Shown: in pieces, positions 6,979 to 62,833 of the stretch
Layout: each line of letters opens with the position of its first letter
How positions within the stretch are numbered: position 1 is the first letter of the stretch
Assembly: GCA_016845365.1 (NCBI GenBank)
Contig: JAERST010000001.1
Coordinates: 79,666 to 143,665, forward strand
Length of the DNA stretch: 64,000 nucleotides
Reading direction: 5' to 3'
Origin: Methanobacteriota archaeon
GTDB lineage: Archaea; Thermoplasmatota; Poseidoniia; Poseidoniales; Thalassarchaeaceae
Program-made: the position numbers and the translations under genes
Notes under the pieces: generated by a model
Databases searched by the model: none
The model's input: the letters and a program-made list of their open reading frames with translations, nothing else
Told to the model about the DNA's origin: nothing

Positions 6979-9900
6979 TTACATGTTTCTTCTGAATTTG
7001 CCACCGGTTTCGAATAGTGCTTGAGTCACTTGCCCAACCGAGCAATATTCGACGATATCCATCATTACTTCGAACAGATTTCCACCATCTCTTGCGACCT
7101 GCTTGAGCCGAGCAAGCCCTTCCTCAGCCTTTGCCGCGTGCTCGGCTCGGAATGCCTCATTGCGCTCGATGACCATCATTCGTTCAGCTTCATCCGAGCG
7201 CGTAACATCAACATCGAAAGCATCGGCTTCATCAGCCGATAGGCTCGCAGCATCCGGATTGATGAAGGTGTTAACACCGACGATCGGCAACTCCCCAGAG
7301 TGCTTTCGATGCTCGTAAACCATCGATTCATCCTGAATGCGGTTGCGTTGGTAATTCACTTCCAATGAGCCTAGCACACCGCCGCGTCGATGCATCTCCT
7401 CGAAGATGCGCAGAATTTCCTCCTCGACTTGGTCGGTCAACCAAGTCGAGAGATGCGAGCCTTGCATCGGATTCTCATTGGCGAGCAATCCGTATTCCTT
7501 TGAGAGAATCATCTGGATCGCCATCGAATCGCGCACCGTCTCCTCGGTAGGAGTCCCAAACGCCTCATCGCGCGAATTCGTATGCAATGAGTTGGCATTG
7601 TCAGCCAGCGCGTAGAGAGCCTGTAAAGTCGTCCTGTAATCGTTGAAAGTGAACTCCTGAGCGTGCAGACTTCGCCCACTCGATTGAATGTGATATTTCA
7701 GCTGTTGACCGCGATGCCCAACCCCGTAGATATCCCGCATCGCGATCGCCCAAATCCTGCGCGCGACACGACCAATCACAGCGTATTCAGGGTCCATTCC
7801 ATTGGAGAAAAACCAACTGAAATTGCGCAGGAATTTGTCAGGGTCGAGCCCACGGGCTCGGAACAATTCGACATAAGTCAGGCCGTTGCTCAGCGTCAGC
7901 GCAGCCTGCGTAATCGGGTTCGCACCGGCCTCTGCAATATGGTAGCCCGAGATCGAGACGAAGTAGTGGTTGCGGACGTTGTTTTGGACGTAGAATTCAG
8001 CGACATCACCCATCATTCTGAGGGCCGTGTCGAGGTTGAAAACCAGTGTGTTTTGCCCCATCGATTCCTTGAGTTGGTCTGCCTGAACCGTACCGCGTAC
8101 CGTGCTCAACGCCGTCGCCTTCAACTCCGCCTTCTCCGCATCGTTCGGGGGCCGTCCGTTCTGCTGCTCAAATTGTCGAATCTGCTGGCGGATTGCGACG
8201 TTGAAGAATGCCGCCAGGTGCCACCAATAATTTCCATTGATGGTTTTCGAGGTGGACGTGTTCGGGGCGCACAAGTCGAACCCTTCGAAGAGCAGGTCCA
8301 TCTCGTCTACCGTGCTAATCGATACGCCGGATTCGCAGACTTTTCCGAAGATATCGAGTCGGGTTTGGGGGTCTCTACCGTAGAGGGATGGTGAATCGAA
8401 GGCCGTGCTGAGTCGGTTGAATGGCTGGCCTTCGGAGAGGAAGTGAAATCGCTTGTTGGTGCGCTCGGCGCTGCCTTCTCCAGCGAACATTCTGATTGGG
8501 ATTTCATCCTCGCGCTTGAAGGGGAAGACTCCTGCCGTGAAGGGGAATGCGCCGGGGACATTTTCGGCGCGAATCCACGCCATTTTCTCTCCCCAGTCTT
8601 GGGTGTCGGGGAGTGCCACTCTGGGCATGTCGAGGCCGCTGAGCGTCTCGGTTGTGGTTTCTACCGGGATGTCCTTGCCTCGAACCGTGTAGGATGCCTG
8701 TCCTGAGCGGTAGGCTGCTGCGCGCTCGTCGAACTCTTTGAGCATCTCCCAGGCACTTGCCGGGACTCGCTTGCGGACTTCTTCGGCTTCTGCTGTGAGG
8801 TCTGCTGCCGAGGTGAGTCGGTTGGACTTGCGCATTTGCTGGGCTGCGGCTTCGAGTTGCTGGACGAGGCGCACGTTGCGGGATGCTTCTTGCGTGCGCG
8901 CGTGGTAATCTCTTACTGACGCTGCAACTTCTGCGAGGTAGCCTTGGCGCTCGGGCGGGATGGGTGCCGAGCGGTGTGGGAGACCGTCGGGGCCGAGTCG
9001 TGCTTCTGCTGCTTCGAATGCTTGGCCGTGTTGTTCGTTTAGCTGGGTTGCGAGCTTTTGCCAGAGTTGGTCGACTCCGGCGTCTGCGAATTGGCTCGCT
9101 ATCGTCGGGATGACTGGCAGGTCCTCGTTCTTGGCGTCCCACATCTCGCGGTTGCGCTTGAATTGCTTGCGGATTTCTGTGAGTGCGTCCTCGGCTCCGG
9201 GGCGGTCGAATTTGTTGAGGACGACGATGTCTGCGAAGTCGAGGGCGGCTAACTTCTCGAGTTGGCTTGGTGCTCCGTATTCCCTTGTCGTGACGTACAT
9301 CGATAGGTCGGCTACCTCGGTTATCGCGTCGTTGCCTTGGCCTATTCCGCTGGTTTCTACGAGGATGAGGTCGAAGCCTACCGCTTGGCAGGCTTCGATT
9401 GCGCGGTCGATGCAATCGGCTATCTCTCGACCGCTTGCTCGGCTTGCGAATGAGCGCATGAATAGGTTATCGTCGGCGAGGCTATTCATGCGGATTCTGT
9501 CGCCGAGCAGGGCCCCACCGGTTCGCTTTCTGGTTGGGTCAGTGGCGAGCAGTGCTACCTTTGCTCCTGGATTGTCGCGCTGGATTCTGAGCATTAGCTC
9601 GTCAGTGAGGCTGGATTTTCCTGCGCCTCCGGTGCCGGTTAGGCCGACGACTGGGCTGGCTTTGCTTTGCTCGACTGAGCGCACTCGCTTGAGGACGGTT
9701 CGGAAATGCTCGTCGTCGGCATTTTCGGCAAGGGTCAGCAACTTTGCAACCGCTCCGTGTTGGTCGGCTGAAACTGGTCCTGAAAGTGAATTGAAGCGAG
9801 CGGAGGCGAGCAGGTCTGTTCCGCTCGCTTCGGCGATGGCATCGCCAACCATCCCGGTCAAGCCCATCTCTCGCCCGTCATCGGGCGAGTAGATTCGGGC

Positions 9901-10284
9901 GATTCCATCGTCGCGTAACTTCTTGATTTCCCACGGCAGGATTGTCCCGCCACCGCCTCCGCAAAGGAATACGTGGTCGAATCCTGCCTCATCGAGGAGT
10001 TCCTTGGTGTGGGTGAACATCTCGACCGCGCCGCCTTGGTAGGATGTGATTGCAATCGCATGAGCATCCTCCTGAATCGCTGCCCGCGCCACCTCATCGG
10101 CGCCGCGGTCGTGGCCGAGGTGGATGACTTCGCAACCCATCGATTGGAAGATTCGCCGGAAGATTCCGATTGCAGCATCATGTCCGTCGAAGATCGCCGC
10201 TGCGGTCACAACCCGCAGCGGCGTGCTCGGCTCAGCCTCCGCCTTCTCTGAAGGCGAATCTGGGGCCTGAGCCTCGCTCACCAT
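6979..10284 (-). CDS. icmF: IcmF-type fused acyl-CoA mutase (B12-binding domain - MeaB-like GTPase - mutase TIM-barrel domain)
   Basis: 1101 aa. N-terminal B12 domain (AAIFDGHDAAIGIF...ITSYQGG), P-loop GLTGTGGAGKSSL plus NKFD of the MeaB/ArgK GTPase, and a C-terminal methylmalonyl-CoA-mutase-like catalytic domain. This domain order is diagnostic of IcmF rather than a split MCM. Confidence 0.8.
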   Translation of the reverse strand: MVSEAQAPDSPSEKAEAEPSTPLRVVTAAAIFDGHDAAIGIFRRIFQSMGCEVIHLGHDRGADEVARAAIQEDAHAIAITSYQGGAVEMFTHTKELLDEAGFDHVFLCGGGGGTILPWEIKKLRDDGIARIYSPDDGREMGLTGMVGDAIAEASGTDLLASARFNSLSGPVSADQHGAVAKLLTLAENADDEHFRTVLKRVRSVEQSKASPVVGLTGTGGAGKSSLTDELMLRIQRDNPGAKVALLATDPTRKRTGGALLGDRIRMNSLADDNLFMRSFASRASGREIADCIDRAIEACQAVGFDLILVETSGIGQGNDAITEVADLSMYVTTREYGAPSQLEKLAALDFADIVVLNKFDRPGAEDALTEIRKQFKRNREMWDAKNEDLPVIPTIASQFADAGVDQLWQKLATQLNEQHGQAFEAAEARLGPDGLPHRSAPIPPERQGYLAEVAASVRDYHARTQEASRNVRLVQQLEAAAQQMRKSNRLTSAADLTAEAEEVRKRVPASAWEMLKEFDERAAAYRSGQASYTVRGKDIPVETTTETLSGLDMPRVALPDTQDWGEKMAWIRAENVPGAFPFTAGVFPFKREDEIPIRMFAGEGSAERTNKRFHFLSEGQPFNRLSTAFDSPSLYGRDPQTRLDIFGKVCESGVSISTVDEMDLLFEGFDLCAPNTSTSKTINGNYWWHLAAFFNVAIRQQIRQFEQQNGRPPNDAEKAELKATALSTVRGTVQADQLKESMGQNTLVFNLDTALRMMGDVAEFYVQNNVRNHYFVSISGYHIAEAGANPITQAALTLSNGLTYVELFRARGLDPDKFLRNFSWFFSNGMDPEYAVIGRVARRIWAIAMRDIYGVGHRGQQLKYHIQSSGRSLHAQEFTFNDYRTTLQALYALADNANSLHTNSRDEAFGTPTEETVRDSMAIQMILSKEYGLLANENPMQGSHLSTWLTDQVEEEILRIFEEMHRRGGVLGSLEVNYQRNRIQDESMVYEHRKHSGELPIVGVNTFINPDAASLSADEADAFDVDVTRSDEAERMMVIERNEAFRAEHAAKAEEGLARLKQVARDGGNLFEVMMDIVEYCSVGQVTQALFETGGKFRRNM

Positions 10285-10328
10285 GCAACTGCGACCTCCA
10301 AATCACAAATGAATGAACCGACGAGGAT

Positions 10329-10961
10329 TCAATCGGTCCGTAGGACCGATTCCTCGTCGTATTTCTCGAGGAATGCGTCTGAAAGCAAATTTAGCCGATT
10401 CTCCAAAGCAGCATCTTTGTAACCCGATTCAGCCAACACATCCTCGGCATCCTTAATCTCTCGAAGATGATCCATTTGACTCCCCACTTTTTGGACGGTT
10501 TCAGACCAGCGGCCGTATAGTTCGGTATTCTCGTAGACCGTGGCGAAGAAAGCATCGAGAGTTTTTTTCTCTGCCAATTCAGAACTTGTTTTTACTTCAA
10601 AACAATTCAATTCTTCATTAATTCCGATATGAGAACCAAAAGTCCCAATCGCGTTCCGATCATTTAGCCGTTCCAAGGCTTGAGTCATCAATGGAGTATC
10701 CTCGTTCTCGATAGTCCACCGGGATCTCGAACTTACTAGAAAATCAGATTTATCATGAAATTTAACTTCCATTTCCCATTTTTCAAAATCATTTTCAAAG
10801 GGCGTAATAAACGCTTGATTTCTATTATCTACAAGAATATCCCAATTTCTTTTTCGTAATTGAGTAGCCAATGATTTGAACCCCCGAATCTCCCCAGATG
10901 CACCTGATTGAACCATTGTACCGCTAAGAAATTCAAACTCCTCTCTTTTGGGTCTTTCCAA
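10329..10961 (-). CDS. hypothetical protein (A+T-rich gene at the island edge)
   Basis: 210-aa ORF with no motif recognised. Composition clearly differs from the neighbouring icmF. Confidence 0.5.
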   Translation of the reverse strand: MERPKREEFEFLSGTMVQSGASGEIRGFKSLATQLRKRNWDILVDNRNQAFITPFENDFEKWEMEVKFHDKSDFLVSSRSRWTIENEDTPLMTQALERLNDRNAIGTFGSHIGINEELNCFEVKTSSELAEKKTLDAFFATVYENTELYGRWSETVQKVGSQMDHLREIKDAEDVLAESGYKDAALENRLNLLSDAFLEKYDEESVLRTD

Positions 10962-11200
10962 GACCCGTATCTCTTTTCACTTTCATTTTGAGTGGTTATA
11001 AAGACACAACAAGGGGGTTTCTGAGAGGGTCGAGAATTCGCAAATTCCTGTCACGACGGGCCGACGAGGGGCACAGACAGGGCGAAAACTCGTTCCTTCA
11101 TATACACTGGAAGTAGATGATAGGTTATGCTGCAGAGCACAGAGACGAAAACACACGCGTCGATTGGGATGCACGCATCGGTTGAAGACAAGGAGGTAGT

Positions 11201-11419
11201 TTGGTGAGCGAAGTCACAACAGACGTGATGATCGCCGACCGTACGGGCCATACCACCCTCCAACTCACCCAGCAGGAGACCCTTGACAGGGTCGCTGGGA
11301 TGGAGGGTGCCTGGGTCTTCGCAGGAGACAGGATGGTGCAGCCAGCTGAGCTGGCGAACACCGACTGGGGTACTGTGGGGACTGTCAGGGTGGTGCCTGG
11401 ACTAGTCGGTGGTAACTGA
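11201..11419 (+). CDS. ubiquitin-like / ThiS-MoaD-like beta-grasp protein ending ...VVPGLVGG-N
   Basis: 72 aa (TTG 11201 or GTG 11204 start). AGGAGG at 11191-11196. The C-terminal diglycine is followed by a single Asn and then the stop codon. An E1::JAB gene lies 110 nt downstream. Confidence 0.6.
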   Translation: MVSEVTTDVMIADRTGHTTLQLTQQETLDRVAGMEGAWVFAGDRMVQPAELANTDWGTVGTVRVVPGLVGGN

Positions 11420-11436
11420 CGGTCTTCAACCGATCC

Positions 11437-11499
11437 GGCGACTCTGTCGCCGCAGATCCACGTAAGGCGCCGCACAGTTGGAGCAATCCGACTGTGCGG
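11437..11499 (+). promoter_or_regulatory. two hairpins in the Ubl-E1 spacer
   Basis: ggcgac-tct-gtcgcc (11437-11451) and ccgcacag-N14-ctgtgcgg (11470-11499), followed by GGAGAGTGA and the ATG at 11530. Confidence 0.3.
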
Positions 11500-11529
11500 T
11501 TGCCGCGAAAACATAGGAGAGTGAATTGA

Positions 11530-12738
11530 ATGAGGTCATATGAACAGAATGCTTGGACAAAGGGTGAGATTGTAATTACGGTAATTGGAGCCGGTGGAAT
11601 TGGCTCAAATCTTGTGCCGCACCTCGCGCGCGCGTTGCGTTGTGGTGAGTTGATCGGCAAGGTCGGTCCGGTGAGATTGCGAGTTATCGATGGTGATTAT
11701 GTTGAGGAACGCAATCTTCAGCATCAGAATTTCACATCGGAAAATGTCGATTCTTACAAGACCGAATCAATCGTCAGACCTCTTTGGAATTGTCATCATA
11801 CCTTATTCACAATCGAATCGATTCCCGAAAATGTTCGAACTCCAACTTTCATCGCGACTTCTGACCTCGTCCTCGTCGCTGTAGATTCGATGGAAGTTCG
11901 TCGTCTGGTTCATCGGTACGCAGACACTTGGTTGGACTTGCGCTGCCAAGGCGATGGTTACATCGCTCTTGACCACAGAGTTGACCCTGTAATCGTCTCA
12001 AAGCTCACGCCGCTGAATGGGGAGTCGACCTCTTGCCAATTGCCAGGGGCTCTCAAGTCTGGCAACATTCAGTTCGGCCATCTTCTCGCGGGGGCTCATG
12101 GTGCGCAGTGGGTACTGCAGTATCTCCGCTACTTCGCTGGTGAGGTGAACGCTCAACCTCCTGCGCCGCAGACTGCGAACATTACCTTCGGAACGCTCGG
12201 TCGCTTCGAACTACACTCTCCAAACCTCGAACCTCGCACAGACGTTGAACCGCAGATTCACAGCGATGATTTGTTGGAGATATTTGTCGAATCGGAGGAG
12301 CATGATTCCGTACCGATTCGGGAGACTCTTACGGCTCACGCAGTGAGCCGCGATTACCAGAGTCTGTGGAACCTCGCGGACCGTCTGGGCCGCGAGGTCA
12401 GCATCCTCTTCGATGCTGACGACAAGGTGTGGGTTGATGTTGGTACAGCCGGACAAGTCCGGCTAGCTCCTCCAGAGGGTGCGCGGATTCCGTTCAAGTT
12501 GTGGATTCACACGCATCCGCGCGATGCATATTGGAGCGCCACAGACCAAGATTCATTGCTCAGATTCAGCGGAATCCTGCAAGAGGCTCTGGTCCTCGGC
12601 CATGACCATCTGAAGAGGGCGGTCCATCTTGCCGAGCCGACAGATGAGTGCATCGAGAAAGGCTCGGCACTCGAATTCTGGACTGACGAGGAAATCACAC
12701 TCTACAGTGAGATGGAGGTAGTCGCAGATGGATCCTGA
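11530..12738 (+). CDS. E1-like (ThiF/MoeB/UBA adenylation domain) fused to a C-terminal JAB/MPN+ (JAMM) metallopeptidase
   Basis: N-half has GAGGIGS (GxGxxG), IDGDYVEERNLQHQ (DxDxV...NLxxQ) and VAVDS. C-half has E289 (GREVSILF) and H327-T-H329-PRDAYW-S336-AT-D339 (nt 12508-12546). No CxxC zinc pairs of the MoeB/UbaA type. Confidence 0.75.
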   Translation: MRSYEQNAWTKGEIVITVIGAGGIGSNLVPHLARALRCGELIGKVGPVRLRVIDGDYVEERNLQHQNFTSENVDSYKTESIVRPLWNCHHTLFTIESIPENVRTPTFIATSDLVLVAVDSMEVRRLVHRYADTWLDLRCQGDGYIALDHRVDPVIVSKLTPLNGESTSCQLPGALKSGNIQFGHLLAGAHGAQWVLQYLRYFAGEVNAQPPAPQTANITFGTLGRFELHSPNLEPRTDVEPQIHSDDLLEIFVESEEHDSVPIRETLTAHAVSRDYQSLWNLADRLGREVSILFDADDKVWVDVGTAGQVRLAPPEGARIPFKLWIHTHPRDAYWSATDQDSLLRFSGILQEALVLGHDHLKRAVHLAEPTDECIEKGSALEFWTDEEITLYSEMEVVADGS

Positions 12739-12967
12739 GATCTCCGCAGCCATGCTCCGAGTCCAGCGAGCGCTGGACGCTCGAGAGCCGAATCAAGTCG
12801 GCTTGAAAATTCCAGCTTTGGTCAATGCGATCATCGATGAGGAAGCAGATGAGGAACTCATCGATCTTGTCCGGTCAGCCATGAGTTCAAAAGAGACGCC
12901 TGTCACTATGCCTGAGGTGATTGAAGGGGTCCTTGGTCTGGTCCGCTGGCGTCAGTCCGCGGCCTAA
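12728..12967 (+). CDS. small acidic helical protein, overlaps the E1::JAB stop by 11 nt
   Basis: 79 aa with no Cys. The overlap suggests translational coupling. A hairpin follows at 12985-13000. Confidence 0.45.
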   Translation: MDPEISAAMLRVQRALDAREPNQVGLKIPALVNAIIDEEADEELIDLVRSAMSSKETPVTMPEVIEGVLGLVRWRQSAA

Positions 12968-12984
12968 GGCCGCGACGCGTGAGA

Positions 12985-13000
12985 GGCCCGGAAACGGGCC
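12985..13000 (+). terminator. GC hairpin ggcccg-gaaa-cgggcc after the Ubl/E1 operon; T-rich run about 100 nt downstream
   Basis: Perfect 6-bp stem with a GAAA loop read directly. Located 18 nt after the stop at 12967. Confidence 0.35.
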
Positions 13001-13172
13001 GAAAACCACCTGATGTGATGGGCAATACTGCCTACCATTATAGGCTAGTAGGGGGCCGGTGATAATCCGGCTCGGGGCAGGAACCTCTCGGAGCAGTTAT
13101 TTTTACCCCAATAATAAGACAAATCCGATATTTCCTGCAATTAGCCAACAAAAGAAATTAGAGGTCATTTAC

Positions 13173-14153
13173 ATGCCAAATTGCTATATTTGTAACAGTA
13201 TTGAAGTAAGAATCGAGAATGATTTGTTCATTTGTTCAGCCTGTGGGTTTGAACAGAATTTGAACTCAACAGAATCTGACTGGGAAAGCGGTCAACGAAT
13301 ACCGAACATCAATCAGTTGACCGCGGTAAATCCCAATCAACTTGGGGGGGCGAGAATCGATGCCAACCACCCCGACGCTCGGCGTAATAGAGTTCTTCGC
13401 CGCCTAATCAGAGCAGAACGAATTGCAGGCGATGGTCAATCCAAACGATTCCTCTCCGAGATACTCGATGAGGTGACTAAACTCGACCTTTCAATCGAGA
13501 TTAAGCAGCGAATCGTCAGGATGTTGCACGAGATAATCAGGTTGCATGGGAAAGGTCTGGGTTGGATTCGTCACCGACCACAGGGAGTGATGACCAAGGA
13601 GGAGTACGAATTGATGACGCGACGTGCATTCATATTGATAGCAATGCAGAAGCTAAACGAAATCGAAGTACCAATAAACGTGCTTCAATACGAGCAAGAA
13701 TGGCAGGTCGAGCCAATCTTCTTCAATCGTGTGAAGAAGGTTCTGGATAAGGCATTGAAATTGGCCGGGAACGGTGGCGCGGCACCCGAAAAGTGTGGAA
13801 TTCGCGAAGCCAATGAGAGGCGACGTCAACAACTCTTGAATCATTTGAACTCCTTGAGAGACTTGGTAGCAAAGCATCTCGGCCATTCGACCGCCAGCAG
13901 GGTTTACACTCAGTCCATTTCCTTACTCAAACAACTCGGCGAACCGATGGATGGTTCTGATTTTGAGAACCTCGGCGAGACTTGCAATATGAAGCCGACC
14001 AAGCTTATTCCCCAAGTCATTGATGCAGCAATGTACATCCTCAACATTCCTTCCCATGACATTCGTCAGGTACGCCGCGAACTCAATCTCCCGAACCGTC
14101 GAGTTCCAGATGCGATGAAGTGGCTGACATCTGCCGATGTAGAAGAAGAGTGA
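13173..14153 (+). CDS. divergent TFB/TFIIB-like protein (N-terminal zinc ribbon plus helical, cyclin-like body)
   Basis: Start placed at MPNCYICNS...FICSACGF (CxxC-x13-CxxC ribbon). At 326 aa it matches TFB length. Helical repeats such as LDLSIEIKQRIVRMLHEIIRLHGKG...AFILIAMQKLNEIEVPINVL resemble TFB cyclin-fold segments. Confidence 0.45.
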   Translation: MPNCYICNSIEVRIENDLFICSACGFEQNLNSTESDWESGQRIPNINQLTAVNPNQLGGARIDANHPDARRNRVLRRLIRAERIAGDGQSKRFLSEILDEVTKLDLSIEIKQRIVRMLHEIIRLHGKGLGWIRHRPQGVMTKEEYELMTRRAFILIAMQKLNEIEVPINVLQYEQEWQVEPIFFNRVKKVLDKALKLAGNGGAAPEKCGIREANERRRQQLLNHLNSLRDLVAKHLGHSTASRVYTQSISLLKQLGEPMDGSDFENLGETCNMKPTKLIPQVIDAAMYILNIPSHDIRQVRRELNLPNRRVPDAMKWLTSADVEEE

Positions 14154-14217
14154 ACCTCCTCTTCACGCCCTCGCGTTCTCGTAGACTCGCCGACCGGCCA
14201 CTAGCCGCGTTCGTGGT

Positions 14218-16125
14218 TCATTCGTCTAGAGGCCGGTTTAGGATCTCACCCAATTGTCCAACTCCTGGGTCCATGCGCTCAAAGTTGGCCCAAGCAGGAC
14301 CGGGCATCAGGCGCATCCTCTGTCTGATGGTAATCAGCGGTTCGAGTAACTCGCCGAATTGATGTACAAATTCACCTAAATCTCTCTGCGGGAATCTAAC
14401 TCGAGTGAACATGTCTCTCCTAGGTCGGCGTACGCCGTGTTCATTGACGTCCTCCACTCTCTCCCAACCAGCTGCTCGAAGCATAGTTTCACTGAGTTCA
14501 TGCTCCAATACGTTTCTAATCCTCAAGGTTGTGTCACATTCGGCAAATTCGATTCGGTACATATCATCACCCCTGCCATCAGCGAAAGCTAGTCTTGAGT
14601 TGAGAGGAAGGCGCAGAAGAACACTCCAAAATCGTGGGAAAATCACTGTAGCTCGAACTGCCATTCGTTCTGCCTGATTACGAGCTCGTATCTCTTCATC
14701 CAGCTCTTGGTCGTCCACTCTCGCTCGGTCCCGGTCTCTCCTCGCTCTATTCTCCACACGTTGGAAATTTTCATTCATAATCTGTCGAAGAACAGGCTGC
14801 AGAGTATCGATGTGAGCAGCGGAGCCGATATCATCGAGAAGACTGAGGATGACCGTACCAATCGCATCACCGAGGACTAAGGCTCGTAATTCATCAGTCT
14901 CTACTACGCAGAGGTGTTCTCGTGGGTGACTCGTTCGAGCGGAATGGCCATTGATTTCCCGTGGGCGAACTCTGAACCTACTCCCATGCGGGCCAGGACC
15001 TGGTGTAACGCTCCAGAGAACACCGGAAATGCCGCGTACCATGAATTGATTATTCTCTGAGTCAATTCGTACTTTCTCATTGTCGGTAATCGCACGAAGG
15101 AATTCGACGCCTCTCCGGTTCTCCTCATCCAAATGTAAGTCTGGAGGCGTCAGGAGACCATACTGCAAACATCGTAGGAATTGATGTTCGGGATGTGCGA
15201 CCGGTGAGAGTGCCCAGTTTAGTATCCTGGCGATCAGAATTGGGTCTGCAGGAAGTCTGCGAGTCATCCATTTCATTCCATTGCGCATTTTCAGCAATAA
15301 GCGTCCCTTCTTGATTGAGAAGCTGAGGCAAACAAGAGGCCTCCTTTCACCATAATTAGCATGTGAAATTGTCCCATCCCATCGTTTGAACCACTCGAGA
15401 TTCTCAATAAGGGAGCGGGGAATGCCGATTTCCATTCCTCGATTCATGCGGTTTAGGTAGGCTCTGTTAGGTTCTGTTCCCTCATCGAAGCGTGAAGGTT
15501 TGAGATAGAAGGTAACCGGATGATAAGAAATCTCTCTACCGTATTCCCCCTGCCTTCCTCTGAATTGTCGCAAACGCATCTGATTCGGAGAAAAACGCGA
15601 GGAAGCCACATTCATTGATACTAACAACGCCTTCCAATTGATTTGGTCAGCATCGTGGCGCTCTAGCATTTTCTCAAGTGTTAGGTATGGGACTGAGAGT
15701 GGAACTCCATCGAGCCAAAATTGATCATCGGCCCAAGTCAAGTAACTTCCATCTGGAAGAATGCCGCCACGTTGTAATCTCCTTCGCGCCGAAAAATCAT
15801 CCGAGAATATCCGTCCGCGCTCGATTTCAGCCTTCATCTCATCATCGAGCGCCCAAGGTTGAGGTGGATCGATTATCCAATGAGAGTCAGCAAGCTTCTG
15901 CGGATTGAGAACCCACCAGATATCGGTGCCTTCAGAGGAGTCGAGGGCAGACCAGAATTCACCCCTGTGGCCGCGCTCAAGTCGGATGCTAGCCGCGGCC
16001 TCATCCATCGAATTTTCATCGGGCATCAATTCCATCGAGCGCCCATGAAGGGCGGGAATGAGGATATGGCAAATATCACAGAAGGTATCTCCCGAGTCTA
16101 CTCCACAGCCTTTACACGAACTCAT
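14218..16125 (-). CDS. large Zn-knuckle protein, paralog A (635 aa), with a UBC-like H-P...C segment
   Basis: N-terminal CKGC-x9-CDIC-H. Internal TSHPREHLCVVETDELRALVLGDAIGTVILSLLDD (Cys406 codon at 14908-14910). Start overlaps the stop of the upstream paralog (ATGA at 16122-16125). Confidence 0.65.
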   Translation of the reverse strand: MSSCKGCGVDSGDTFCDICHILIPALHGRSMELMPDENSMDEAAASIRLERGHRGEFWSALDSSEGTDIWWVLNPQKLADSHWIIDPPQPWALDDEMKAEIERGRIFSDDFSARRRLQRGGILPDGSYLTWADDQFWLDGVPLSVPYLTLEKMLERHDADQINWKALLVSMNVASSRFSPNQMRLRQFRGRQGEYGREISYHPVTFYLKPSRFDEGTEPNRAYLNRMNRGMEIGIPRSLIENLEWFKRWDGTISHANYGERRPLVCLSFSIKKGRLLLKMRNGMKWMTRRLPADPILIARILNWALSPVAHPEHQFLRCLQYGLLTPPDLHLDEENRRGVEFLRAITDNEKVRIDSENNQFMVRGISGVLWSVTPGPGPHGSRFRVRPREINGHSARTSHPREHLCVVETDELRALVLGDAIGTVILSLLDDIGSAAHIDTLQPVLRQIMNENFQRVENRARRDRDRARVDDQELDEEIRARNQAERMAVRATVIFPRFWSVLLRLPLNSRLAFADGRGDDMYRIEFAECDTTLRIRNVLEHELSETMLRAAGWERVEDVNEHGVRRPRRDMFTRVRFPQRDLGEFVHQFGELLEPLITIRQRMRLMPGPAWANFERMDPGVGQLGEILNRPLDE

Positions 16126-17849
16126 CTTGCTTCCTCCAAGGCTTGGAGGTCGCCTCCGAATCTCTCGAATAATCGCTCGATTGCCTGCCGGAGATGTTCT
16201 TCGCTTTCATCCAATTCGCGTAGGTTTTCTTCCAACACATTTCGAGTAATTTCACGATTGTGTTCAACCACCTCTTCTCTCTCAAAATCGATATTATCCC
16301 AATCATAATCTTCCTCGTAATACTCATCTTCTTCGATCTCATCTTCATCCATCAAGAGCTCTTCATCGTCGGGGACTCCGTGGACATAATCGTCGACCAA
16401 ATGGTCCCACCAACACGGCGCTTCGACCCTCCTCTTCTGCCACCCCTTGTGCTTGCTCAGCAAATCCAGGAGGTGATGGAGAGTGATGATTCCCGTCTGA
16501 CTCTCGAGGTCGTTATGCAATGCCAAGAGATAGCTGGCGGCGACATCGCCGGTGGGGATGTCGTGTCCCGCTTGACTATCGATACAGATTTGCACGCCAC
16601 GTTCTATAGCATCTTCAAACATCGATTCGTGGGGAATCGCGTTGACGAGGAATTTCTTCGGGTCTGCTGTGGCAAGCAGAACATAGTGCAGACCGCTAGC
16701 CCCTTTGACTCGCAATCCGAGTTTGGTAGAGTCGACGCGCACTGGTTCCATCGAAGAGTGTTCACCGAGAGTCTCAACCGTCTTCTTGAGGAAGAGAACG
16801 GAATTCCGCTGACTCGAGGTTGGGACCCAGAATTCATCTTCTGAGTTCCAGCACCAAAACAAGTCATTCAACTTCTCAGAATGTTCTGTTCCTGGGGGCT
16901 CGAAGGTCCAAGCCATCAGCAAGCGCCAAACTCGAGGTTCGACCATCACAGGAATCGGGGTAGGCTTACCATCGACGAGCGCAAGTAGGCAAAAGCGCTC
17001 GTTGACAACGACGAGTTTGGGAGTGATGAAATGCCCAAGCAGGGTCACGATGGCGGCTTGACGGTCTTCTAGAATCTCCAGCCATGTTTCAGCAGCTCTG
17101 CCGCCTTGTTCCTCGATCAATTCGATATTTCCGTCAATCAATTCTCTGAGTGGTGCATCCCCACCGAGTTTATCTCTCTCGAGCAAGGTCAAAAATCGTA
17201 GGAATGGATGCATCAAATGTCTGACAGAGAAGTTGTCAGAGATTCCCATCATATGAGGCTCGACACCATGCCATGCATTGTGTCGGTACCACTCAGCCCA
17301 ATTGTCGATTGTCTCTGGATGGCAATCACGTAGGCAGCAAGACATCGCGAAGAGGAAATGTTTCCAATTTACAACCGACCCAACCCGAGCGGGATTTGAC
17401 ATCCATAGAGCGATGTCTCGCATCGGTAGTGGGCCCGGGAGTGTGATATCGTCAATCGAGATTTTGGAGTCGGCGCCAACTTTGAGAATGCTTCCTCCCG
17501 GCAGCGGCAGTCCGCCGTTACTGGTAATTCCGTGAAGGTTGAGAATCCGTCCGTACTGCCGCCACTGCTCAGCCGCTGCCTCGCTGAAATAAGGCGGTTG
17601 ACCACGCCGAGAGCGGAGAGCGCGAGGTAATTCGGAATCGATGGTCTCCGCCTCGGCGAGCATCATCAATCTCTGTTCATGAGTCAGCCCGCGGCCGGGT
17701 CTGAGAATCGCTTTCATTTCGGCTAAGTCGCCGGTCTGAGGGATATTTTGTTGGGACAATCCAGTGATTCCACGGGCAGTTAGGGAGCAGACCGCGCAGT
17801 CGTGAATGAAGTTAGAAGTAGCATGTCCACACCAGCAGAGATTAGGCAT
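16122..17849 (-). CDS. large Zn-knuckle protein, paralog B (575 aa), with a UBC-like segment and a hyper-acidic C-terminal region
   Basis: N-terminal CWC-x10-CAVC. Internal FLVNAIPHESMFEDAIERGVQICIDSQ...VAASYLLALHNDL (Cys422 codon at 16584-16586). Acidic DDEELLMDEDEIEEDEYYEEDYDWDNIDFEREE. Collinear similarity to the 635-aa protein. Confidence 0.65.
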   Translation of the reverse strand: MPNLCWCGHATSNFIHDCAVCSLTARGITGLSQQNIPQTGDLAEMKAILRPGRGLTHEQRLMMLAEAETIDSELPRALRSRRGQPPYFSEAAAEQWRQYGRILNLHGITSNGGLPLPGGSILKVGADSKISIDDITLPGPLPMRDIALWMSNPARVGSVVNWKHFLFAMSCCLRDCHPETIDNWAEWYRHNAWHGVEPHMMGISDNFSVRHLMHPFLRFLTLLERDKLGGDAPLRELIDGNIELIEEQGGRAAETWLEILEDRQAAIVTLLGHFITPKLVVVNERFCLLALVDGKPTPIPVMVEPRVWRLLMAWTFEPPGTEHSEKLNDLFWCWNSEDEFWVPTSSQRNSVLFLKKTVETLGEHSSMEPVRVDSTKLGLRVKGASGLHYVLLATADPKKFLVNAIPHESMFEDAIERGVQICIDSQAGHDIPTGDVAASYLLALHNDLESQTGIITLHHLLDLLSKHKGWQKRRVEAPCWWDHLVDDYVHGVPDDEELLMDEDEIEEDEYYEEDYDWDNIDFEREEVVEHNREITRNVLEENLRELDESEEHLRQAIERLFERFGGDLQALEEAR

Positions 17850-17975
17850 AATCAGATATCAACGTCGAGAGTATTTGAACTCGGAATTGGCGAACCCCTT
17901 TCCACACCTCGCACAGCGGGAATTCTCCACCCGCGCCGGGTGAGTATTGAAGGTAGGAGGCACATTCGATAGTCG

Positions 17976-18440
17976 ATGGCCGATCCGACTGAGGCACACA
18001 TCTGCCCGCGCGATGGCTCCCCCCTCGTGCCTCCAGCAGAGTCGGATCGCTCGGCTTACATCCGCCACGGAATCCACCACTGCGACACGTGCGCGGGCAT
18101 GCTTCTCAATGCCGAGGCCGCCGAGGACGCCATCTGTGCAACCAAGCTCGAAGAGATGCACGAAGGCTTCACTGAAGAGGGAACGCCAGTCGACATCGAT
18201 TGCCCATTCTGCGATGCGCAGATGCGAGTCCGCAATTTTGCTTTCCAGCGCATCGATGGCAGCCTCACCGAGCCGATTGAAATCGACGGCTGCCCAAATT
18301 GCACATCGTTTTGGTTAGACGCGGGCGAACTCCACAGATTGTCACCGCCCGCGAACGGCGATCGCACAGCTCGCGTCGAGGCCAACGCGCTCGCCGTCGT
18401 CCTCGAAATTCTCTTCCAATTGCCAATCGTCCTACTCTGA
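17976..18440 (+). CDS. double zinc-ribbon protein (zf-TFIIB / PF13453-like)
   Basis: CPRDGSPL...HHCDTCAGMLL and CPFCDAQM...CPNCTSFWLDAGELHRL; the C..C-WLD-GEL pattern is typical of this family. Divergent from the giant-paralog operon. Confidence 0.6.
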   Translation: MADPTEAHICPRDGSPLVPPAESDRSAYIRHGIHHCDTCAGMLLNAEAAEDAICATKLEEMHEGFTEEGTPVDIDCPFCDAQMRVRNFAFQRIDGSLTEPIEIDGCPNCTSFWLDAGELHRLSPPANGDRTARVEANALAVVLEILFQLPIVLL

Positions 18441-36111: not shown

Positions 36112-36260
36112 GCCGGGGTGGCGTAGTTGGTAGCGCGTCGGACTCATAGGGTACAGTTGACGGGATTTTTCCTGTCGACGCGATCGATGAGCGCACAAGC
36201 CTAGCCGAGAATGTCTGAGACATCCGAAGGTCGCGGGTTCGAGTCCCGCTCCCGGCACCA
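36112..36260 (+). tRNA. tRNA with CAT anticodon (elongator Met or Ile2) carrying a 73-nt intron at 37/38; CCA encoded
   Basis: Manual fold: acceptor GCCGGGG/TCCCGGC, D-arm GCGT-AGTTGGTA-GCGC, anticodon stem TCGGA/TCCGA, loop CTCATA|intron 36149-36221|A, T-arm GCGGG-TTCGAGT-CCCGC, then ACCA. G1:C72 and a non-GGG anticodon stem argue against an initiator. Confidence 0.85.
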
Positions 36261-61793: not shown

Positions 61794-62579
61794 TCATCTG
61801 GAACTGTAATGCTGCTCATTAGCGATTTCCATCATCCCTGACATTAGTGCAGCAATATATTCCATCTCTGGCTCATAAACCACCCCAAGTCCACCGATTG
61901 GTAAAATAAATTCATCATCTATTACTACAGCAAGGGAGTTTGTCCCCATTGGGCCATCCATAGTGCAAACTCCTGTCATACTGGAATCGCCAATTCTCCA
62001 AGGAAGACCTCCATATTGCCAATGTCCTCTCCAAAAAACCCCTAAATTGGTAATCATTAGTCCATTTTTAGGAGCGAAAATAGCCGTTTTTTCATCTAAT
62101 ATAGCGAATACATCTGTTTCCTTAAACATACCATTTACGCGGAATCGGTCATTGGAAATCCCATTATTGAGTTTCTTTGCAGGAATATTAGGTGCTAGAT
62201 ATAGATTGCAATTCTTTACCGGCCTCTGTCCCATAAGGCTGACTTTAGGAAAATCTGGAGCAGTTGATAGCACAGTATTTACTGAATCATCAAAGACTAA
62301 TTCTTGAATATCTTCCTGCAAGAATAATTGATGATCAATGTCTTCACCATCTGGAGTAAGGAAAAATGTCCATTCTGAATATTTTGACAACATATGTTGA
62401 CCTAATTCATCTGGATCTTCGAATGGGTCTTGGAAATCTGCAACGGGACCTAATTCGAAAACAGCTTGGCATTGAGGACCTTGCATCACGTTAATGTAAT
62501 GATAGATTTGGTAGCTGAGTTTCATTAATTCTTCTTCACTTGGTTCATCCTCGCTCGGTGAATCCTCAGCAGCGACCAT
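61794..62579 (-). CDS. hypothetical protein in the A+T-rich terminal segment
   Basis: 261-aa ORF with an acidic N-terminus and no motif recognised. Confidence 0.45.
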   Translation of the reverse strand: MVAAEDSPSEDEPSEEELMKLSYQIYHYINVMQGPQCQAVFELGPVADFQDPFEDPDELGQHMLSKYSEWTFFLTPDGEDIDHQLFLQEDIQELVFDDSVNTVLSTAPDFPKVSLMGQRPVKNCNLYLAPNIPAKKLNNGISNDRFRVNGMFKETDVFAILDEKTAIFAPKNGLMITNLGVFWRGHWQYGGLPWRIGDSSMTGVCTMDGPMGTNSLAVVIDDEFILPIGGLGVVYEPEMEYIAALMSGMMEIANEQHYSSR

Positions 62580-62833
62580 ACCATGTGTTACTCATGGATA
62601 GAAATAAGGATGTTGCCGGCATCTAATTCTGATTGACATTTCAGACAATCACAATATAATCAATTATCAGACAAATCAATGGGTTTGCAGCCCGCCGTTT
62701 CACAGGGTACCCTTTAGATCGAGATAAATCGATGATAAATCAGAGGGTTTCTGGCAACATATTCCAAACCTATTGCATTGTATTGTAAGTAATTTTGGAG
62801 ATTATGATATGGTATTGCAACTGATGACTCCGC

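What the first reader, a model, noticed from the sequence alone, without database searches (positions are those of the whole stretch)
11201..11419. Ubl precursor with a one-residue C-terminal cap (…GG-N)
Seen: the ORF ends VVPGLVGG followed by a single Asn and then the stop codon. It has a strong AGGAGG box 4-7 nt before the TTG/GTG start. The alternating hydrophobic pattern (DVMIADRTG / HTTLQLT / helix QQETLDRVAGMEG / AWVFAGDRMV / TVRVVPGL) fits a beta-grasp. Established: ubiquitin, the Caldiarchaeum pro-Ub and the QbsE-type carriers are made with residues after the GG, which a JAB or DUB must remove before E1 activation. Haloarchaeal SAMPs usually end exactly at GG. Inference: the fused JAB of the adjacent E1 probably matures this protein, so activation would be gated by the same polypeptide.
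Basis: partly seen in the sequence, partly recalled or inferred. Interest (0 to 1): 0.65.

Follow-up and report, generated by a model that had tools for sequence, protein, structure and literature searches.

The report
Capped ubiquitin-like protein of marine archaea
This is a real, conserved gene for a small ubiquitin-like protein made with one disposable residue after its reactive Gly-Gly end, sitting next to an enzyme that fuses the activating (E1) and trimming (JAB) activities, in a previously undescribed system of the abundant ocean archaea called Marine Group II.

Summary
ORF 11201/11204–11419(+) encodes a 71–72-aa protein ending VPGLVGG-N-stop, with AGGAGG 4 nt before the TTG and 7 nt before the GTG start.

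It is a real gene under purifying selection. It has 61 database homologues, plus 69 intact copies in 80 further metagenome loci. The Gly-Gly is almost invariant. It is followed by one variable residue (twelve different residues among the database homologues; F and Y also occur in the metagenome loci), sometimes two, and rarely none.

AlphaFold gives a confident β-grasp, and ubiquitin and Ubls are the best structural matches. The adjacent 402-aa protein is an E1 adenylation domain with an invariant loop cysteine, fused to a divergent JAMM/JAB domain whose E…HxH…S..D motif is invariant.

The host is a Marine Group II archaeon (Poseidoniales). The genes lie in a fixed chromosomal block with an ~80-aa protein and two paralogous zinc-ribbon proteins that carry an invariant Cys. 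None of these partners matches a known family, and no UBC-type E2 is detectable.

Cap removal by the fused JAB is an inference. It has an experimental precedent in bacterial BubCD, a JAB–E1 fusion that cleaves its Ubl precursor after the conserved Gly.

Verdict: a new archaeal variant of a known kind of system.

The parts
11190..11196 (+). Shine-Dalgarno-like AAGGAGG upstream of the Ubl start
   Evidence: Read directly from the sequence. AGGAGG (11191-11196) lies 4 nt before the TTG at 11201 and 7 nt before the GTG at 11204.
11204..11419 (+). Ubl precursor gene: 71 aa from the GTG (alternative TTG start at 11201). Mature end Gly-Gly at 11408-11413, one-residue Asn cap at 11414-11416, stop at 11417-11419.
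   Evidence: ORF and sequence. 61 homologues with near-invariant VPGLVGG and a variable cap. Purifying selection. β-grasp model, pLDDT 86. Ubiquitin and Ubl structural hits. The only PDB sequence matches of the family profile are to ubiquitin, and they are weak. Census of 69 further capped copies.
11432..11504 (+). Two stable stem-loops in the Ubl-E1 spacer. The main 17-bp hairpin is at about 11466-11504.
   Evidence: MFE -53.6 kcal/mol, z = -5.3, 0 of 200 shuffles as stable. The hairpin is conserved in L001-L004, with 8 of 17 pairs showing compensatory double changes. Its function as an attenuator or stabiliser is inferred.
11530..12240 (+). E1 (ThiF-type adenylation) domain of the E1::JAB protein, residues 1-237. 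GxGGIG at residues 20-25; invariant Cys169 (12034-12036) in the predicted crossover loop.
   Evidence: Pfam ThiF E = 5.6e-14, above the curated cut-off. Foldseek ThiF 2.6e-10, then UBA5, MccB, Cap2, MoeB. Profile against PDB sequences hits E1s only. Invariant residues.
12241..12738 (+). JAB/JAMM metalloprotease domain of the same polypeptide, residues 238-402. E289 (12394-12396), H327 and H329 (12508-12516), S336 (12535-12537), D339 (12544-12546).
   Evidence: The motif is invariant in 47 homologues. Of the domain profile's 17 PDB sequence hits at E ≤ 10, the best 16 are JAMM deubiquitinases aligned on W-H-x-H-P..S..D; the best is CsRpn11, E = 1.2e-3. The domain is encoded as a separate gene next to E1 in L012, L014, L085 and L094.
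12728..12967 (+). 79-aa acidic protein whose start overlaps the E1::JAB stop. It is a universal partner of unknown function.
   Evidence: A homologue follows the JAB in 72 of 72 contigs that extend at least 0.4 kb downstream. It is also present in the split-gene variant L014. It has no Pfam, PADLOC or NCBIfam match.
13059..14153 (+). Zn-ribbon plus helical protein (probable start at the ATG at 13173), a conserved neighbour
   Evidence: Orthologues in L005, L008 and L009. Found in 46 of 56 census contigs that extend far enough. Only a generic Zn-ribbon signal and no TFB match.
14218..16125 (-). 635-aa protein with an N-terminal CxxC..CxxC zinc ribbon and an orphan domain carrying an invariant Cys (Cys406, 'EHLCVVE'). 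It is a candidate Ubl acceptor or conjugating factor.
   Evidence: Paralogue of the next gene. The family has 215 cluster representatives. Among 95 with a full domain, Cys is kept in 99% and two Asp in 98-99%. Present in 38 of 40 census contigs with at least 3.5 kb downstream, and in the divergent loci L011, L013 and L014. No PDB, Pfam or E2 signal.
16122..17849 (-). 575-aa paralogue with the same zinc ribbon and invariant Cys ('QICIDS')
   Evidence: Two or more copies are present in 34 of 40 census contigs.
17976..18440 (+). 154-aa protein with two TFIIB-type zinc ribbons and a hydrophobic C-terminal tail, a conserved neighbour
   Evidence: 59-62% identical orthologues in L005-L008, carrying a weak Pfam Zn_ribbon_TFIIB annotation. 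Found in 14 of 19 census contigs that extend far enough.
10329..10961 (-). 210-aa protein transcribed divergently from the Ubl. It is a conserved neighbour, and its orthologues lack any conserved Cys.
   Evidence: Orthologues in L001, L002 and L004-L008. Found in 23 of 25 census contigs that extend far enough. No family match.

Best explanation
The ORF encodes the precursor of a ubiquitin-type β-grasp modifier that belongs to a self-contained Ubl system fixed in the chromosome of Marine Group II archaea.

Proposed sequence of events:
1. The protein is translated with one residue (here Asn) after its reactive Gly-Gly. This blocks the carboxylate that an E1 must adenylate.
2. The JAB/JAMM domain at the C-terminus of the neighbouring E1::JAB protein removes the cap. 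The same polypeptide's E1 domain then adenylates Gly70 and probably forms a thioester on the invariant loop Cys169.
3. The activated Ubl is most likely passed on for attachment to proteins. This could go through the invariant Cys of the two co-conserved zinc-ribbon proteins, or directly as in the archaeal SAMP/UbaA system.
4. The JAB domain also reverses the conjugates.

Shown here: the gene is real; the GG is conserved; the cap is short and variable; the fold is a β-grasp; the E1 and JAMM domains are present with intact motifs; and the genes are tightly linked.

Inferred: cap removal by this particular JAB, the thioester relay, and protein conjugation as the outcome.
For: - **Gene and cap.**. 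All 69 intact Ubl genes in 80 loci are capped, and GG changes only synonymously.
- **Fold.** (β-grasp; ubiquitin, ISG15, SUMO and NEDD8 are the top hits). In one search the family profile matches only ubiquitin among PDB sequences, end to end, although each single-domain score is weak.
- **E1.**. Cys169 is invariant within an S-C-Q motif, in a low-confidence loop of the model where E1 crossover loops lie.
- **JAB.**
- **E1-JAB linkage.** The two are fused in 73 of 80 loci and encoded as adjacent separate genes in 2 (E1 is off the contig in the other 5). L012 and L014 are further split examples.
- **No sulfur-transfer signals.** There is no rhodanese domain and no sulfur-metabolism gene in the conserved block.
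- **Partner with an invariant Cys** in 38 of 40 loci that extend far enough.
- **Precedents.**
  - BubCD, a JAB-E1 fusion, cleaves its Ubl precursor right after the conserved Gly (PMC11601596).
  - CsRpn11 removes nine residues after the GG of Caldiarchaeum pro-ubiquitin (PMC6043591).
  - Iyer et al. 2006 predicted that JAB domains fused or adjacent to rhodanese-less E1s both process and remove Ubls (PMC1779556).
Against: - No biochemical data exist for this system.
- The JAB domain is divergent. Pfam does not detect it (1 of 15 members at E = 0.054), its best PDB E-value is only 1.2e-3, and the spacer between H-x-H and Ser is 6 residues rather than the canonical 7.
- The E1 has an invariant His where canonical E1s have the ATP-binding Arg of NLxRQ.
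- No UBC-type E2 is detectable. hhalign gives 3-4% probability, and the Cys domain has no PDB or Pfam match.
- Uncapped Ubl copies exist (P0053, P0060, P0061; L014 has both kinds), so the cap is not obligatory.
- The window's Ubl has no lysine, so poly-Ubl chains through Lys are impossible for this copy.
Confidence: 0.6

Rival explanations
1. It is a sulfur-carrier system of the QbsE/CysO type. The JAB trims the cap, the E1 adenylates the Gly-Gly end, and the end is converted to a thiocarboxylate that donates sulfur to a small molecule or to tRNA. Protein conjugation is absent or incidental.
For: The E1's closest named relatives include ThiF and MoeB. JAB-trimmed capped sulfur carriers are established (QbsE/QbsD, and CysO/Mec+ which releases a single residue; own knowledge). 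Archaeal SAMPs do both jobs (PMC2948915). No E2 was detected.
Against: There is no rhodanese domain on the E1. No cysteine desulfurase, sulfurtransferase or biosynthetic enzyme lies in the block that is conserved across 80 loci. The Ubl's only sequence and fold matches are ubiquitin-type, not ThiS, MoaD or Urm1. The obligatory partners are zinc-ribbon proteins with an invariant Cys, not metabolic enzymes. Iyer et al. 2006 found that rhodanese-less E1s fused to JAB go with conjugation-type operons.
Confidence: 0.2
2. The JAB domain is only a deconjugating isopeptidase. The one-residue cap is removed by some other peptidase, or is functionally neutral.
For: Uncapped copies exist and sit in loci that still have the JAB (L012, L014), so the JAB must have a role beyond cap removal. 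The identity of the cap residue is unconstrained.
Against: Cap length is strongly constrained while both its codon and the stop codon vary: 62 of 69 have exactly one residue, 7 have two and 0 have none in the census. That is not neutral drift of a stop codon. JAMM enzymes that both process precursors and deconjugate are documented (CsRpn11; BubCD). No other peptidase is conserved in the block.
Confidence: 0.12
3. It is an MccB-like or RiPP-like system. The E1-like enzyme chemically modifies the C-terminal residue itself (here Asn, as in microcin C7 biosynthesis), rather than activating a Gly-Gly end.
For: MccB is among the best structural and sequence matches of the E1 domain, and the window's cap happens to be Asn.
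Against: The terminal residue is I, E, F, Y, Q, L, K, N and others in orthologues and is absent in some, so no Asn-specific chemistry can be conserved. The substrate is a folded 70-aa β-grasp with an invariant GG, not a short peptide. A JAMM peptidase is fused to the E1.
Confidence: 0.03

Closest known systems
Bacterial Bub (6E/DUF6527) type I pathway: BubAB with the BubCD peptidase-E1 fusion (Ye et al. 2024, PMC11601596)
   Same: One polypeptide combines a JAB/JAMM peptidase with a homodimer-type E1 adenylation domain resembling ThiF and UBA5. Experimentally, the peptidase cleaves the Ubl precursor immediately after the conserved Gly to expose the end that the same protein activates.
   Different: - The domain order is reversed: JAB is N-terminal in BubCD and C-terminal here.
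- The Bub Ubl is fused to its E2 and has one to three β-grasp domains. Here the Ubl is a stand-alone single domain with a 1-2-residue cap.
- BubCD lacks a catalytic Cys and works through oxyesters. This E1 has an invariant loop Cys.
- No DUF6527 or BubE protein and no UBC-type E2 was detected here.
- Bub is a sporadic bacterial system with defence-like context. This one is archaeal and chromosomally fixed.
Caldiarchaeum subterraneum ubiquitin operon: pro-CsUb with CsRpn11 (Fuchs et al. 2018, PMC6043591)
   Same: An archaeal ubiquitin-type Ubl is made with residues after the GG, and a JAMM protease cleaves exactly after Gly-Gly. CsRpn11 is the best PDB sequence match of this JAB domain.
   Different: CsUb has a nine-residue tail. 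Its operon encodes separate E1, UBC E2, RING E3 and Rpn11 proteins that are recognisably eukaryote-like. Here the cap is 1-2 residues, the JAB is fused to the E1, and no UBC or RING protein is recognisable.
Haloarchaeal SAMP / UbaA / HvJAMM1 system
   Same: It is an archaeal β-grasp modifier with a C-terminal GG, activated by a ThiF-type E1 without a known E2 and reversed by a JAMM protease.
   Different: - SAMPs are ThiS/MoaD-type and end at GG (own knowledge). This Ubl matches neither Pfam family.
- This E1 scores 23 bits against the UbaA model, whose cut-off is 450.
- In archaea, Jab genes are rarely next to Ubl genes (PMC2948915). Here Ubl, E1 and JAB are always together.
Bacterial 6a-type E2-E1-JAB triple-domain proteins, CBASS Cap2/Cap3 and PRTRC ThiF (Iyer et al. 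2006, PMC1779556)
   Same: These are rhodanese-less E1s with a JAB fused at the C-terminus or encoded next door. PRTRC_ThiF is the best NCBIfam hit and Cap2 is a structural match.
   Different: There is no N-terminal E2 domain here, because the Rossmann motif starts at residue 20. Scores are far below the family cut-offs (52.9 against 144.75 for PRTRC_ThiF). The bacterial systems sit on mobile or defence elements, whereas no relatives were found on viral contigs and synteny is fixed here.
Eukaryotic polyubiquitin precursors (own knowledge)
   Same: A single, variable, non-conserved residue follows the last Gly-Gly (for example Asn in yeast UBI4, Cys or Val in human UBB/UBC). It must be removed before activation.
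   Different: In eukaryotes the cap follows a head-to-tail polyubiquitin and is removed by cysteine-protease deubiquitinases, and no enzyme fuses E1 with a deubiquitinase.

Membership tests
Ubiquitin-like β-grasp modifiers (superfamily level) | β-grasp fold (ββαββ(α)β) | tested here: met
   AlphaFold2 model with pLDDT 86 and pTM 0.73, with the elements in β-grasp order. Nearly all of the Foldseek top 50 are ubiquitin, ISG15, SUMO, NEDD8 or UBL domains, with TM 0.40-0.56.
Ubiquitin-like β-grasp modifiers (superfamily level) | Conserved C-terminal Gly-Gly on a flexible tail, exposed directly or after processing | tested here: met
   VPGLVGG is near-invariant in 61 + 69 homologues. Tail residues 69-71 are disordered in the model.
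Ubiquitin-like β-grasp modifiers (superfamily level) | Dedicated E1 adenylating enzyme genetically linked | tested here: met
   E1 or E1::JAB lies immediately downstream in every locus that extends far enough.
Ubiquitin-like β-grasp modifiers (superfamily level) | Covalent attachment to targets, or thiocarboxylate formation | not testable with these tools
   Needs biochemistry or proteomics.
Ubiquitin family proper (Pfam PF00240) | Sequence match to the family model | tested here: inconclusive
   No Pfam hit for any of 40 members. The family profile's only PDB sequence matches are to ubiquitin, aligned end to end (TGxT.TL, FAG..GG). Each single domain scores about 13 bits (E 0.1-0.8), and the low E-values for polyubiquitin come from summing repeats.
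ThiS/MoaD/Urm1/SAMP sulfur-carrier Ubls | Sequence match to the ThiS, MoaD or Urm1 models | tested here: not met
   No Pfam or NCBIfam hit. No ThiS, MoaD, Urm1 or SAMP chain is among the PDB profile hits shown (best 60 of 112) or among the Foldseek top 50.
E1 / ThiF-type adenylating enzymes | Rossmann-type adenylation domain matching the ThiF model and fold | tested here: met
   PF00899 scores 52.3 bits against a cut-off of 28.1. Foldseek gives ThiF 2.6e-10, then UBA5, MccB, Cap2 and MoeB. The PDB profile hits are all E1s. GxGGIG and the Asp of 'AVDS' are invariant.
E1 / ThiF-type adenylating enzymes | ATP-binding Arg of the NLxRQ motif | tested here: not met
   An invariant His65 (NLQHQ) aligns with that Arg in the MccB alignment. 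The consequence for catalysis is unknown.
E1 / ThiF-type adenylating enzymes | Catalytic Cys in the crossover loop | tested here: met
   Cys169 is invariant in an S-C-Q motif across 47 homologues. It lies in a lower-confidence loop, residues 160-180, of the model. Its catalytic role is not testable here.
JAMM/MPN+ (JAB) metalloproteases | E...H-x-H-x(7)-S-x-x-D metal and catalytic motif | tested here: met
   E289, H327, H329, S336 and D339 are invariant in 47 homologues. The spacer between H-x-H and Ser is 6 residues, or 15 in a few members, instead of 7.
JAMM/MPN+ (JAB) metalloproteases | Sequence match to the family models or to solved members | tested here: inconclusive
   Pfam: only 1 of 15 members hits Prok-JAB, at E = 0.054. 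PDB profile search: the best 16 of the 17 hits at E ≤ 10 are JAMM deubiquitinases aligned on the catalytic segment, with a best E of 1.2e-3. A separate fold search of this domain was not possible, because E1 hits fill the list for the whole-protein model.
Bub (6E/DUF6527) pathway | JAB N-terminal to E1, a Ubl-E2 fusion or E2-E1 fusion, a DUF6527 serine protease, and an E1 without a catalytic Cys | tested here: not met
   Here the JAB is C-terminal, the Ubl stands alone, no DUF6527 or UBC hit was found, and the E1 has an invariant Cys. The system works like Bub in coupling peptidase and E1, but it is not a member.
SAMP-activating E1 UbaA (NCBIfam NF047750) | Score above the equivalog cut-off | tested here: not met
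   23.2 bits against a cut-off of 450.
UBC-fold E2 enzymes (considered for the zinc-ribbon/Cys-domain partners) | Detectable similarity to the UBC fold, with the catalytic Cys in an HPN...C context | tested here: not met
There are no PDB hits at E ≤ 10 or only noise, and no Pfam hit. No HPN motif is conserved.

The most novel reading that the evidence does not exclude
Marine Group II archaea carry a third kind of archaeal protein-modification pathway, distinct from SAMP/UbaA and from the Caldiarchaeum/Asgard ubiquitin operons. In it, a ubiquitin-type modifier is trimmed and activated by a single E1::JAB enzyme. It is then handed by thioester relay to a new, non-UBC class of conjugating enzyme: the zinc-ribbon proteins with one invariant Cys and two invariant Asp.
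Probability: 0.3. Interest if true: 0.8.

Novelty: new variant of a known kind. Interest (0 to 1): 0.6.

Why it matters
Marine Group II archaea are among the most abundant archaea in the surface ocean, and none has been cultured, so their cell biology is known only from sequence.

This block appears to be part of their core chromosome. It keeps the same neighbours in lineages whose E1::JAB proteins are only about 47% identical.

It encodes a ubiquitin-type modifier, rather than a ThiS/MoaD-type one, with a eukaryote-style disposable cap. It also encodes an enzyme that joins trimming and activation in one chain, and three orphan protein families that always travel with them.

If it is a conjugation system, it would add an independent archaeal example to the history of ubiquitin signalling. 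It would also point to a conjugating factor that is not a UBC E2.

The short cap may serve to keep this modifier from being activated by the cell's housekeeping E1. This idea is an inference. It parallels the cross-reactivity argument made for Caldiarchaeum in PMC6043591.

The system is small enough to reconstitute from synthetic genes.

Tried and rejected
1. **Defence or mobile island.** PADLOC gave only weak E1-E2 (Cap2) matches to the Rossmann part. There are no relatives on IMG/VR viral contigs. Synteny next to the IcmF-like mutase and the LysE and acyl-CoA ligase genes is fixed across MGII lineages. Rejected, even though the block has lower GC than its flanks.
2. **Bacterial origin.** One homologue is labelled 'Longimicrobiales', but its contig has the MGII gene order and is probably mis-binned.
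3. **UBC E2 in the large paralogues.** The 'ICID…LLALxND' segment looked like the E2 'ICLDIL…LLSI..LL.DPN'. Two profile searches against PDB sequences, Pfam scans and two hhalign runs gave nothing.
4. **TFB identity of the 364-aa zinc-ribbon protein.** There is no TFB or cyclin signal, although the divergent locus L013 has a true TFIIB next to its Ubl.
5. **Cap present only where E1 and JAB are fused.** Rejected by L014, L085 and L094.
6. **N-terminal extension of the L012 E1 (ending LPLLLGG) as a fused copy of this Ubl.** hhalign gives 2.5% probability.
7. **MccB-like chemistry on the terminal Asn.** Rejected because the cap residue varies.
8. **Single-sequence phmmer of the E1 domain against PDB sequences.** It found nothing at E ≤ 1e-3, so the family profile was needed.
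9. **Pfam on the proteins of the divergent loci.** Nothing beyond ThiF.
10. **Literature searches for this system in MGII/Poseidoniales.** No description was found in the held library. Grau-Bové 2015 reports RING and UCH genes in one MGII single-cell genome, not this system.
Full report
**The observation**

Its last codons are GGT GGT AAC TGA, giving Gly-Gly-Asn-stop. AGGAGG (11191-11196) lies 4 nt before the TTG and 7 nt before an in-frame GTG at 11204. The database gene call and the orthologue N-termini (M-x-x-x-T-T-x-V) favour the GTG, giving 71 aa.

**It is a real gene**

A search of 5.8 billion proteins found 61 homologues, nearly all from marine metagenomes. Against five Poseidoniales orthologue copies (L001-L004), nucleotide differences concentrate at codon position 3 (for example 11/4/34 at positions 1/2/3). 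Synonymous codon changes outnumber non-synonymous ones about 2-3 to 1. The more distant L014 copy shows a weaker bias (17/16/38).

**The Gly-Gly and the cap**

- 'VPGLVGG' (or 'MPGLTGG' in one lineage) is almost invariant.
- The two Gly codons vary only synonymously. The following codon (AAC, GAG, ATC…) and the stop codon (TGA, TAA, TAG) both vary, yet the stop stays one codon after GG.
- Among the database homologues, 46 have a one-residue cap, plus 5 more with a variant motif. Twelve different residues occur. Three end exactly at GG and five have longer tails.
- I then anchored a metagenome scan on the JAB domain and took a census of the 80 best loci out of 224 relatives. There were 69 intact Ubl genes: 62 with one cap residue, 7 with two and none bare.
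- So the cap's identity is free, but its presence and shortness are maintained. That is not what neutral drift of a stop codon would give.

**Fold**

AlphaFold2, run on a 40-sequence alignment, gives a confident model (pLDDT 86, pTM 0.73). The elements are in the order β-β-α-β-β-(short α)-β, and the last three residues are disordered.

Nearly all of the top 50 Foldseek matches against the PDB are ubiquitin, ISG15, SUMO, NEDD8 or UBL domains. The scores are modest (TM 0.40-0.56, best E = 1.5e-3), so this is a divergent β-grasp.

No Pfam, NCBIfam or PADLOC family matches it. The family profile's only PDB sequence matches are to ubiquitin itself. They align end to end: TGHT-TLQL with TGKTITLEV, FAGDRM with FAGKQL, and VRIVPGLVGG with LHLVLRLRGG. 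Each single domain scores only about 13 bits. The very low E-values for polyubiquitin come from summing repeated weak hits, so I treat this as a lean towards ubiquitin-type and not as membership. No ThiS, MoaD, Urm1 or SAMP structure appears in either list.

**The neighbouring enzyme**

ORF 11530..12738 (402 aa) has an N-terminal ThiF/E1 domain.
- Pfam PF00899 scores 52 bits against a cut-off of 28.
- The whole-protein model has pLDDT 85.
- Foldseek matches ThiF (2.6e-10), then UBA5, MccB, Cap2 and MoeB.
- Profile hits in PDB sequences are all E1s.

Across 47 homologues the invariant residues include GxGGIG, the Asp of 'AVDS', and Cys169 in an S-C-Q motif. Cys169 sits in the lower-confidence loop where E1 crossover loops lie. 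One departure from canonical E1s is an invariant His at the position of the ATP-binding Arg of 'NLxRQ'.

The C-terminal ~165 residues carry invariant E289, H327-x-H329 and S336-x-x-D339. This is the JAMM motif with a 6-residue spacer instead of 7. Pfam misses the domain. A profile of it matches 17 PDB sequences at E ≤ 10. The best 16 are JAMM deubiquitinases, all aligned on the catalytic segment. The best hit is the Caldiarchaeum Rpn11-like protease that processes pro-ubiquitin (E = 1.2e-3), followed by AMSH-LP, Sst2 and STAMBP. I accept it as a divergent JAB domain.

**Organism and context**

The closest genomic loci are titled Candidatus Poseidoniales or Thalassarchaeaceae. The window also carries a tRNA match of 146 nt at 36112-36257, found by Rfam and missed by ARAGORN. 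Its length suggests an intron, which would fit an archaeon; I did not follow this up. One GenBank homologue labelled 'Longimicrobiales' lies on a 5.4-kb contig with the same gene order and is probably mis-binned.

The gene order is the same in lineages whose E1::JAB proteins are only about 47% identical:
- IcmF-like mutase (−)
- a 170-210-aa protein (−)
- Ubl (+)
- E1::JAB (+)
- an ~80-aa protein that overlaps the E1 stop (+)
- a ~330-aa zinc-ribbon protein (+)
- two paralogous ~550-630-aa proteins (−)
- a 150-aa double zinc-ribbon protein (+)
- LysE (−)
- an acyl-CoA ligase (−)

Co-occurrence in the census, counting only contigs that extend far enough:

| Partner | Present / contigs |
|---|---|
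| ~80-aa protein | 72 / 72 |
| At least one large paralogue | 38 / 40 |
| Two or more large paralogues | 34 / 40 |
| 364-aa type | 46 / 56 |
| 210-aa type | 23 / 25 |
| 154-aa type | 14 / 19 |

No relatives occur on viral contigs. This is a fixed cellular block and not a mobile island, even though its GC content is lower than that of its flanks.

**Split and divergent versions**

In L012, L014, L085 and L094 the E1 and JAB domains are separate adjacent genes, with JAB-domain E-values down to about 1e-47. This fusion/fission pattern is classical evidence that the two act together.

It also shows that the cap does not depend on the fusion:
- L085 and L094 are split and their Ubls are capped.
- L014 has tandem Ubls, one ending GG-N and one ending GG.
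- L012 is split and its Ubl is uncapped.

Across all variants the shared core is Ubl + E1 + JAB + the ~80-aa protein + at least one zinc-ribbon/Cys-domain protein.

**The orphan partners**

The two large paralogues share three features:
- an N-terminal CxxC…CxxC ribbon;
- an 'RRLQRGGxLPDGS' motif;
- a ~190-residue domain with the pattern 'G-x-S-G-x-x-Y … C-I … GD … L-x-L-x-x-D'.

An exhaustive profile search found 215 cluster representatives. Among the 95 with a full domain, the Cys is kept in 99% and two Asp in 98-99%.

The segment looked E2-like to me, so I tested that idea. Two profiles against PDB sequences gave no hits or only noise. Pfam gave nothing, even for the 750-845-aa forms. hhalign against canonical E2s gave 3-4% probability.

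I therefore call it a candidate Ubl acceptor or conjugating factor, on the grounds of obligatory linkage and an invariant Cys. I do not call it an E2.

**How it most likely works**

- Shown: a ubiquitin-type precursor with a blocked GG, and beside it an enzyme carrying both an adenylation domain with a loop Cys and an intact JAMM site.
- Inferred: the JAB removes the cap. The E1 adenylates Gly70 and forms a thioester on Cys169. The Ubl is then attached to proteins, either through the partner Cys or directly as with the archaeal SAMPs. The JAB reverses the attachment.

The inference has direct precedents:
- BubCD, a bacterial JAB-E1 fusion, cleaves its Ubl precursor right after the conserved Gly, and this needs its JAMM residues (PMC11601596).
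- CsRpn11 removes nine residues after the GG of Caldiarchaeum pro-ubiquitin and also deconjugates (PMC6043591).
- Iyer et al. 2006 noted that rhodanese-less E1s in Ubl/E2-type bacterial operons are typically fused to a JAB or adjacent to one. They predicted both processing and removal roles (PMC1779556).

The main rival is a QbsE/CysO-type sulfur carrier. It is weakened by four points: there is no rhodanese domain, no sulfur enzyme lies in the conserved block, the Ubl is ubiquitin-type, and the partners are not metabolic enzymes. It is not excluded.

**Comparison and novelty**

The principle of a capped Ubl trimmed by a JAB that is fused to its E1 is known. This system is not a member of Bub, for four reasons: the domain order is reversed, the Ubl stands alone, the E1 has a Cys, and there is no DUF6527 protein. 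It is also not a member of the Cap2/6a type, because there is no E2 domain. It is not SAMP/UbaA, because the E1 scores 23 bits against a cut-off of 450 and the Ubl is not ThiS/MoaD-type. And it is not the Caldiarchaeum operon, because there is no UBC or RING protein.

In archaea, only one Jab-E1 fusion (methanogen RC-I) was noted in the 2010 survey, which also said that Jab genes are rarely next to Ubl genes (PMC2948915). I found no description of this MGII system in the held literature.

I rate it a new variant of a known kind, with interest 0.6. The Ubl finding itself is a solid but expected type of feature. The surrounding orphan machinery, in a globally abundant uncultured lineage, is what would interest a specialist.

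Noticed in passing
window 11432-11504 (spacer between the Ubl and E1::JAB genes): The spacer folds very stably (-53.6 kcal/mol, z = -5.3) into two stem-loops. The 17-bp main hairpin is flanked by conserved ACGTAAGG and GGTTGC. It is kept in L001-L004, with 8 of 17 pairs showing compensatory double changes. It may be an intercistronic attenuator or mRNA-end stabiliser that sets Ubl in excess over E1.
   Followed up: partly
window 14218-16125(-) and 16122-17849(-): These are two paralogous orphan proteins with an N-terminal CxxC..CxxC ribbon and a domain with an invariant Cys and two invariant Asp. The family has 215 cluster representatives and no Pfam or PDB match, and it is always linked to the Ubl/E1/JAB genes.
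   Followed up: yes
window 12728-12967(+): This 79-aa acidic protein ends in a conserved W-[RK] motif, and its start overlaps the E1::JAB stop. A homologue is present in 72 of 72 loci that extend far enough, including split-gene variants. Its function is unknown.
   Followed up: partly
window 11530-12738, residue His65 (11722-11724): The E1 family has an invariant His (NLQHQ) where canonical E1s have the ATP-binding Arg of NLxRQ.
   Followed up: partly
L003 1-550; L014 1780-2331; L026, L031: Some genomes carry two tandem Ubl genes with different caps: L003 has GG-I and GG-E, and L014 has GG-N and a bare GG.
   Followed up: partly
L016 228-527 (P0036); also P0029, P0055, P0051: These Ubl paralogues have long tails after the GG, some with Cys-rich segments (…GG-NEEGCEHLRVRTSCKECG…; …GGCEHGR…CKECGGY). 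The one on L016 sits next to a 744-aa cold-shock-domain protein with no E1 nearby.
   Followed up: partly
L012 1049-2053: In one split-gene variant the E1 has a ~110-residue N-terminal extension that ends in LPLLLGG just before the Rossmann motif. It is not detectably homologous to the Ubl (hhalign 2.5%).
   Followed up: partly
L013 (whole locus): The most divergent Ubl (ending at GG) sits next to a WYL-domain regulator, two Cys-domain proteins, a genuine TFIIB and an AAA ATPase. WYL regulators accompany some bacterial Bub operons.
   Followed up: no
L009 (GenBank JAPKER010000143.1, GCA_028821975.1): This contig is deposited as a 'Longimicrobiales bacterium' MAG, but it has the MGII archaeal gene order for this block and is probably mis-binned.
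   Followed up: partly
window 36112-36257(+): Rfam finds a tRNA match of 146 nt here that ARAGORN misses. Its length suggests an intron.
   Followed up: no
window 10001-18000 and 62001-64000: The Ubl block has lower GC (0.50-0.52) than its flanks (0.55-0.60), although it is syntenic across MGII. The last 2 kb of the window drop to 0.40 GC.
   Followed up: no
window 11204-11416: The window's Ubl contains no lysine at all, and Lys is not conserved in orthologues. Lys-linked chains of this modifier are therefore unlikely.
   Followed up: no
window 6979-10284(-): This is a 1101-aa fused B12-binding + MeaB GTPase + methylmalonyl-CoA-mutase protein (IcmF-like). It is the constant upstream neighbour of the block.
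   Followed up: no
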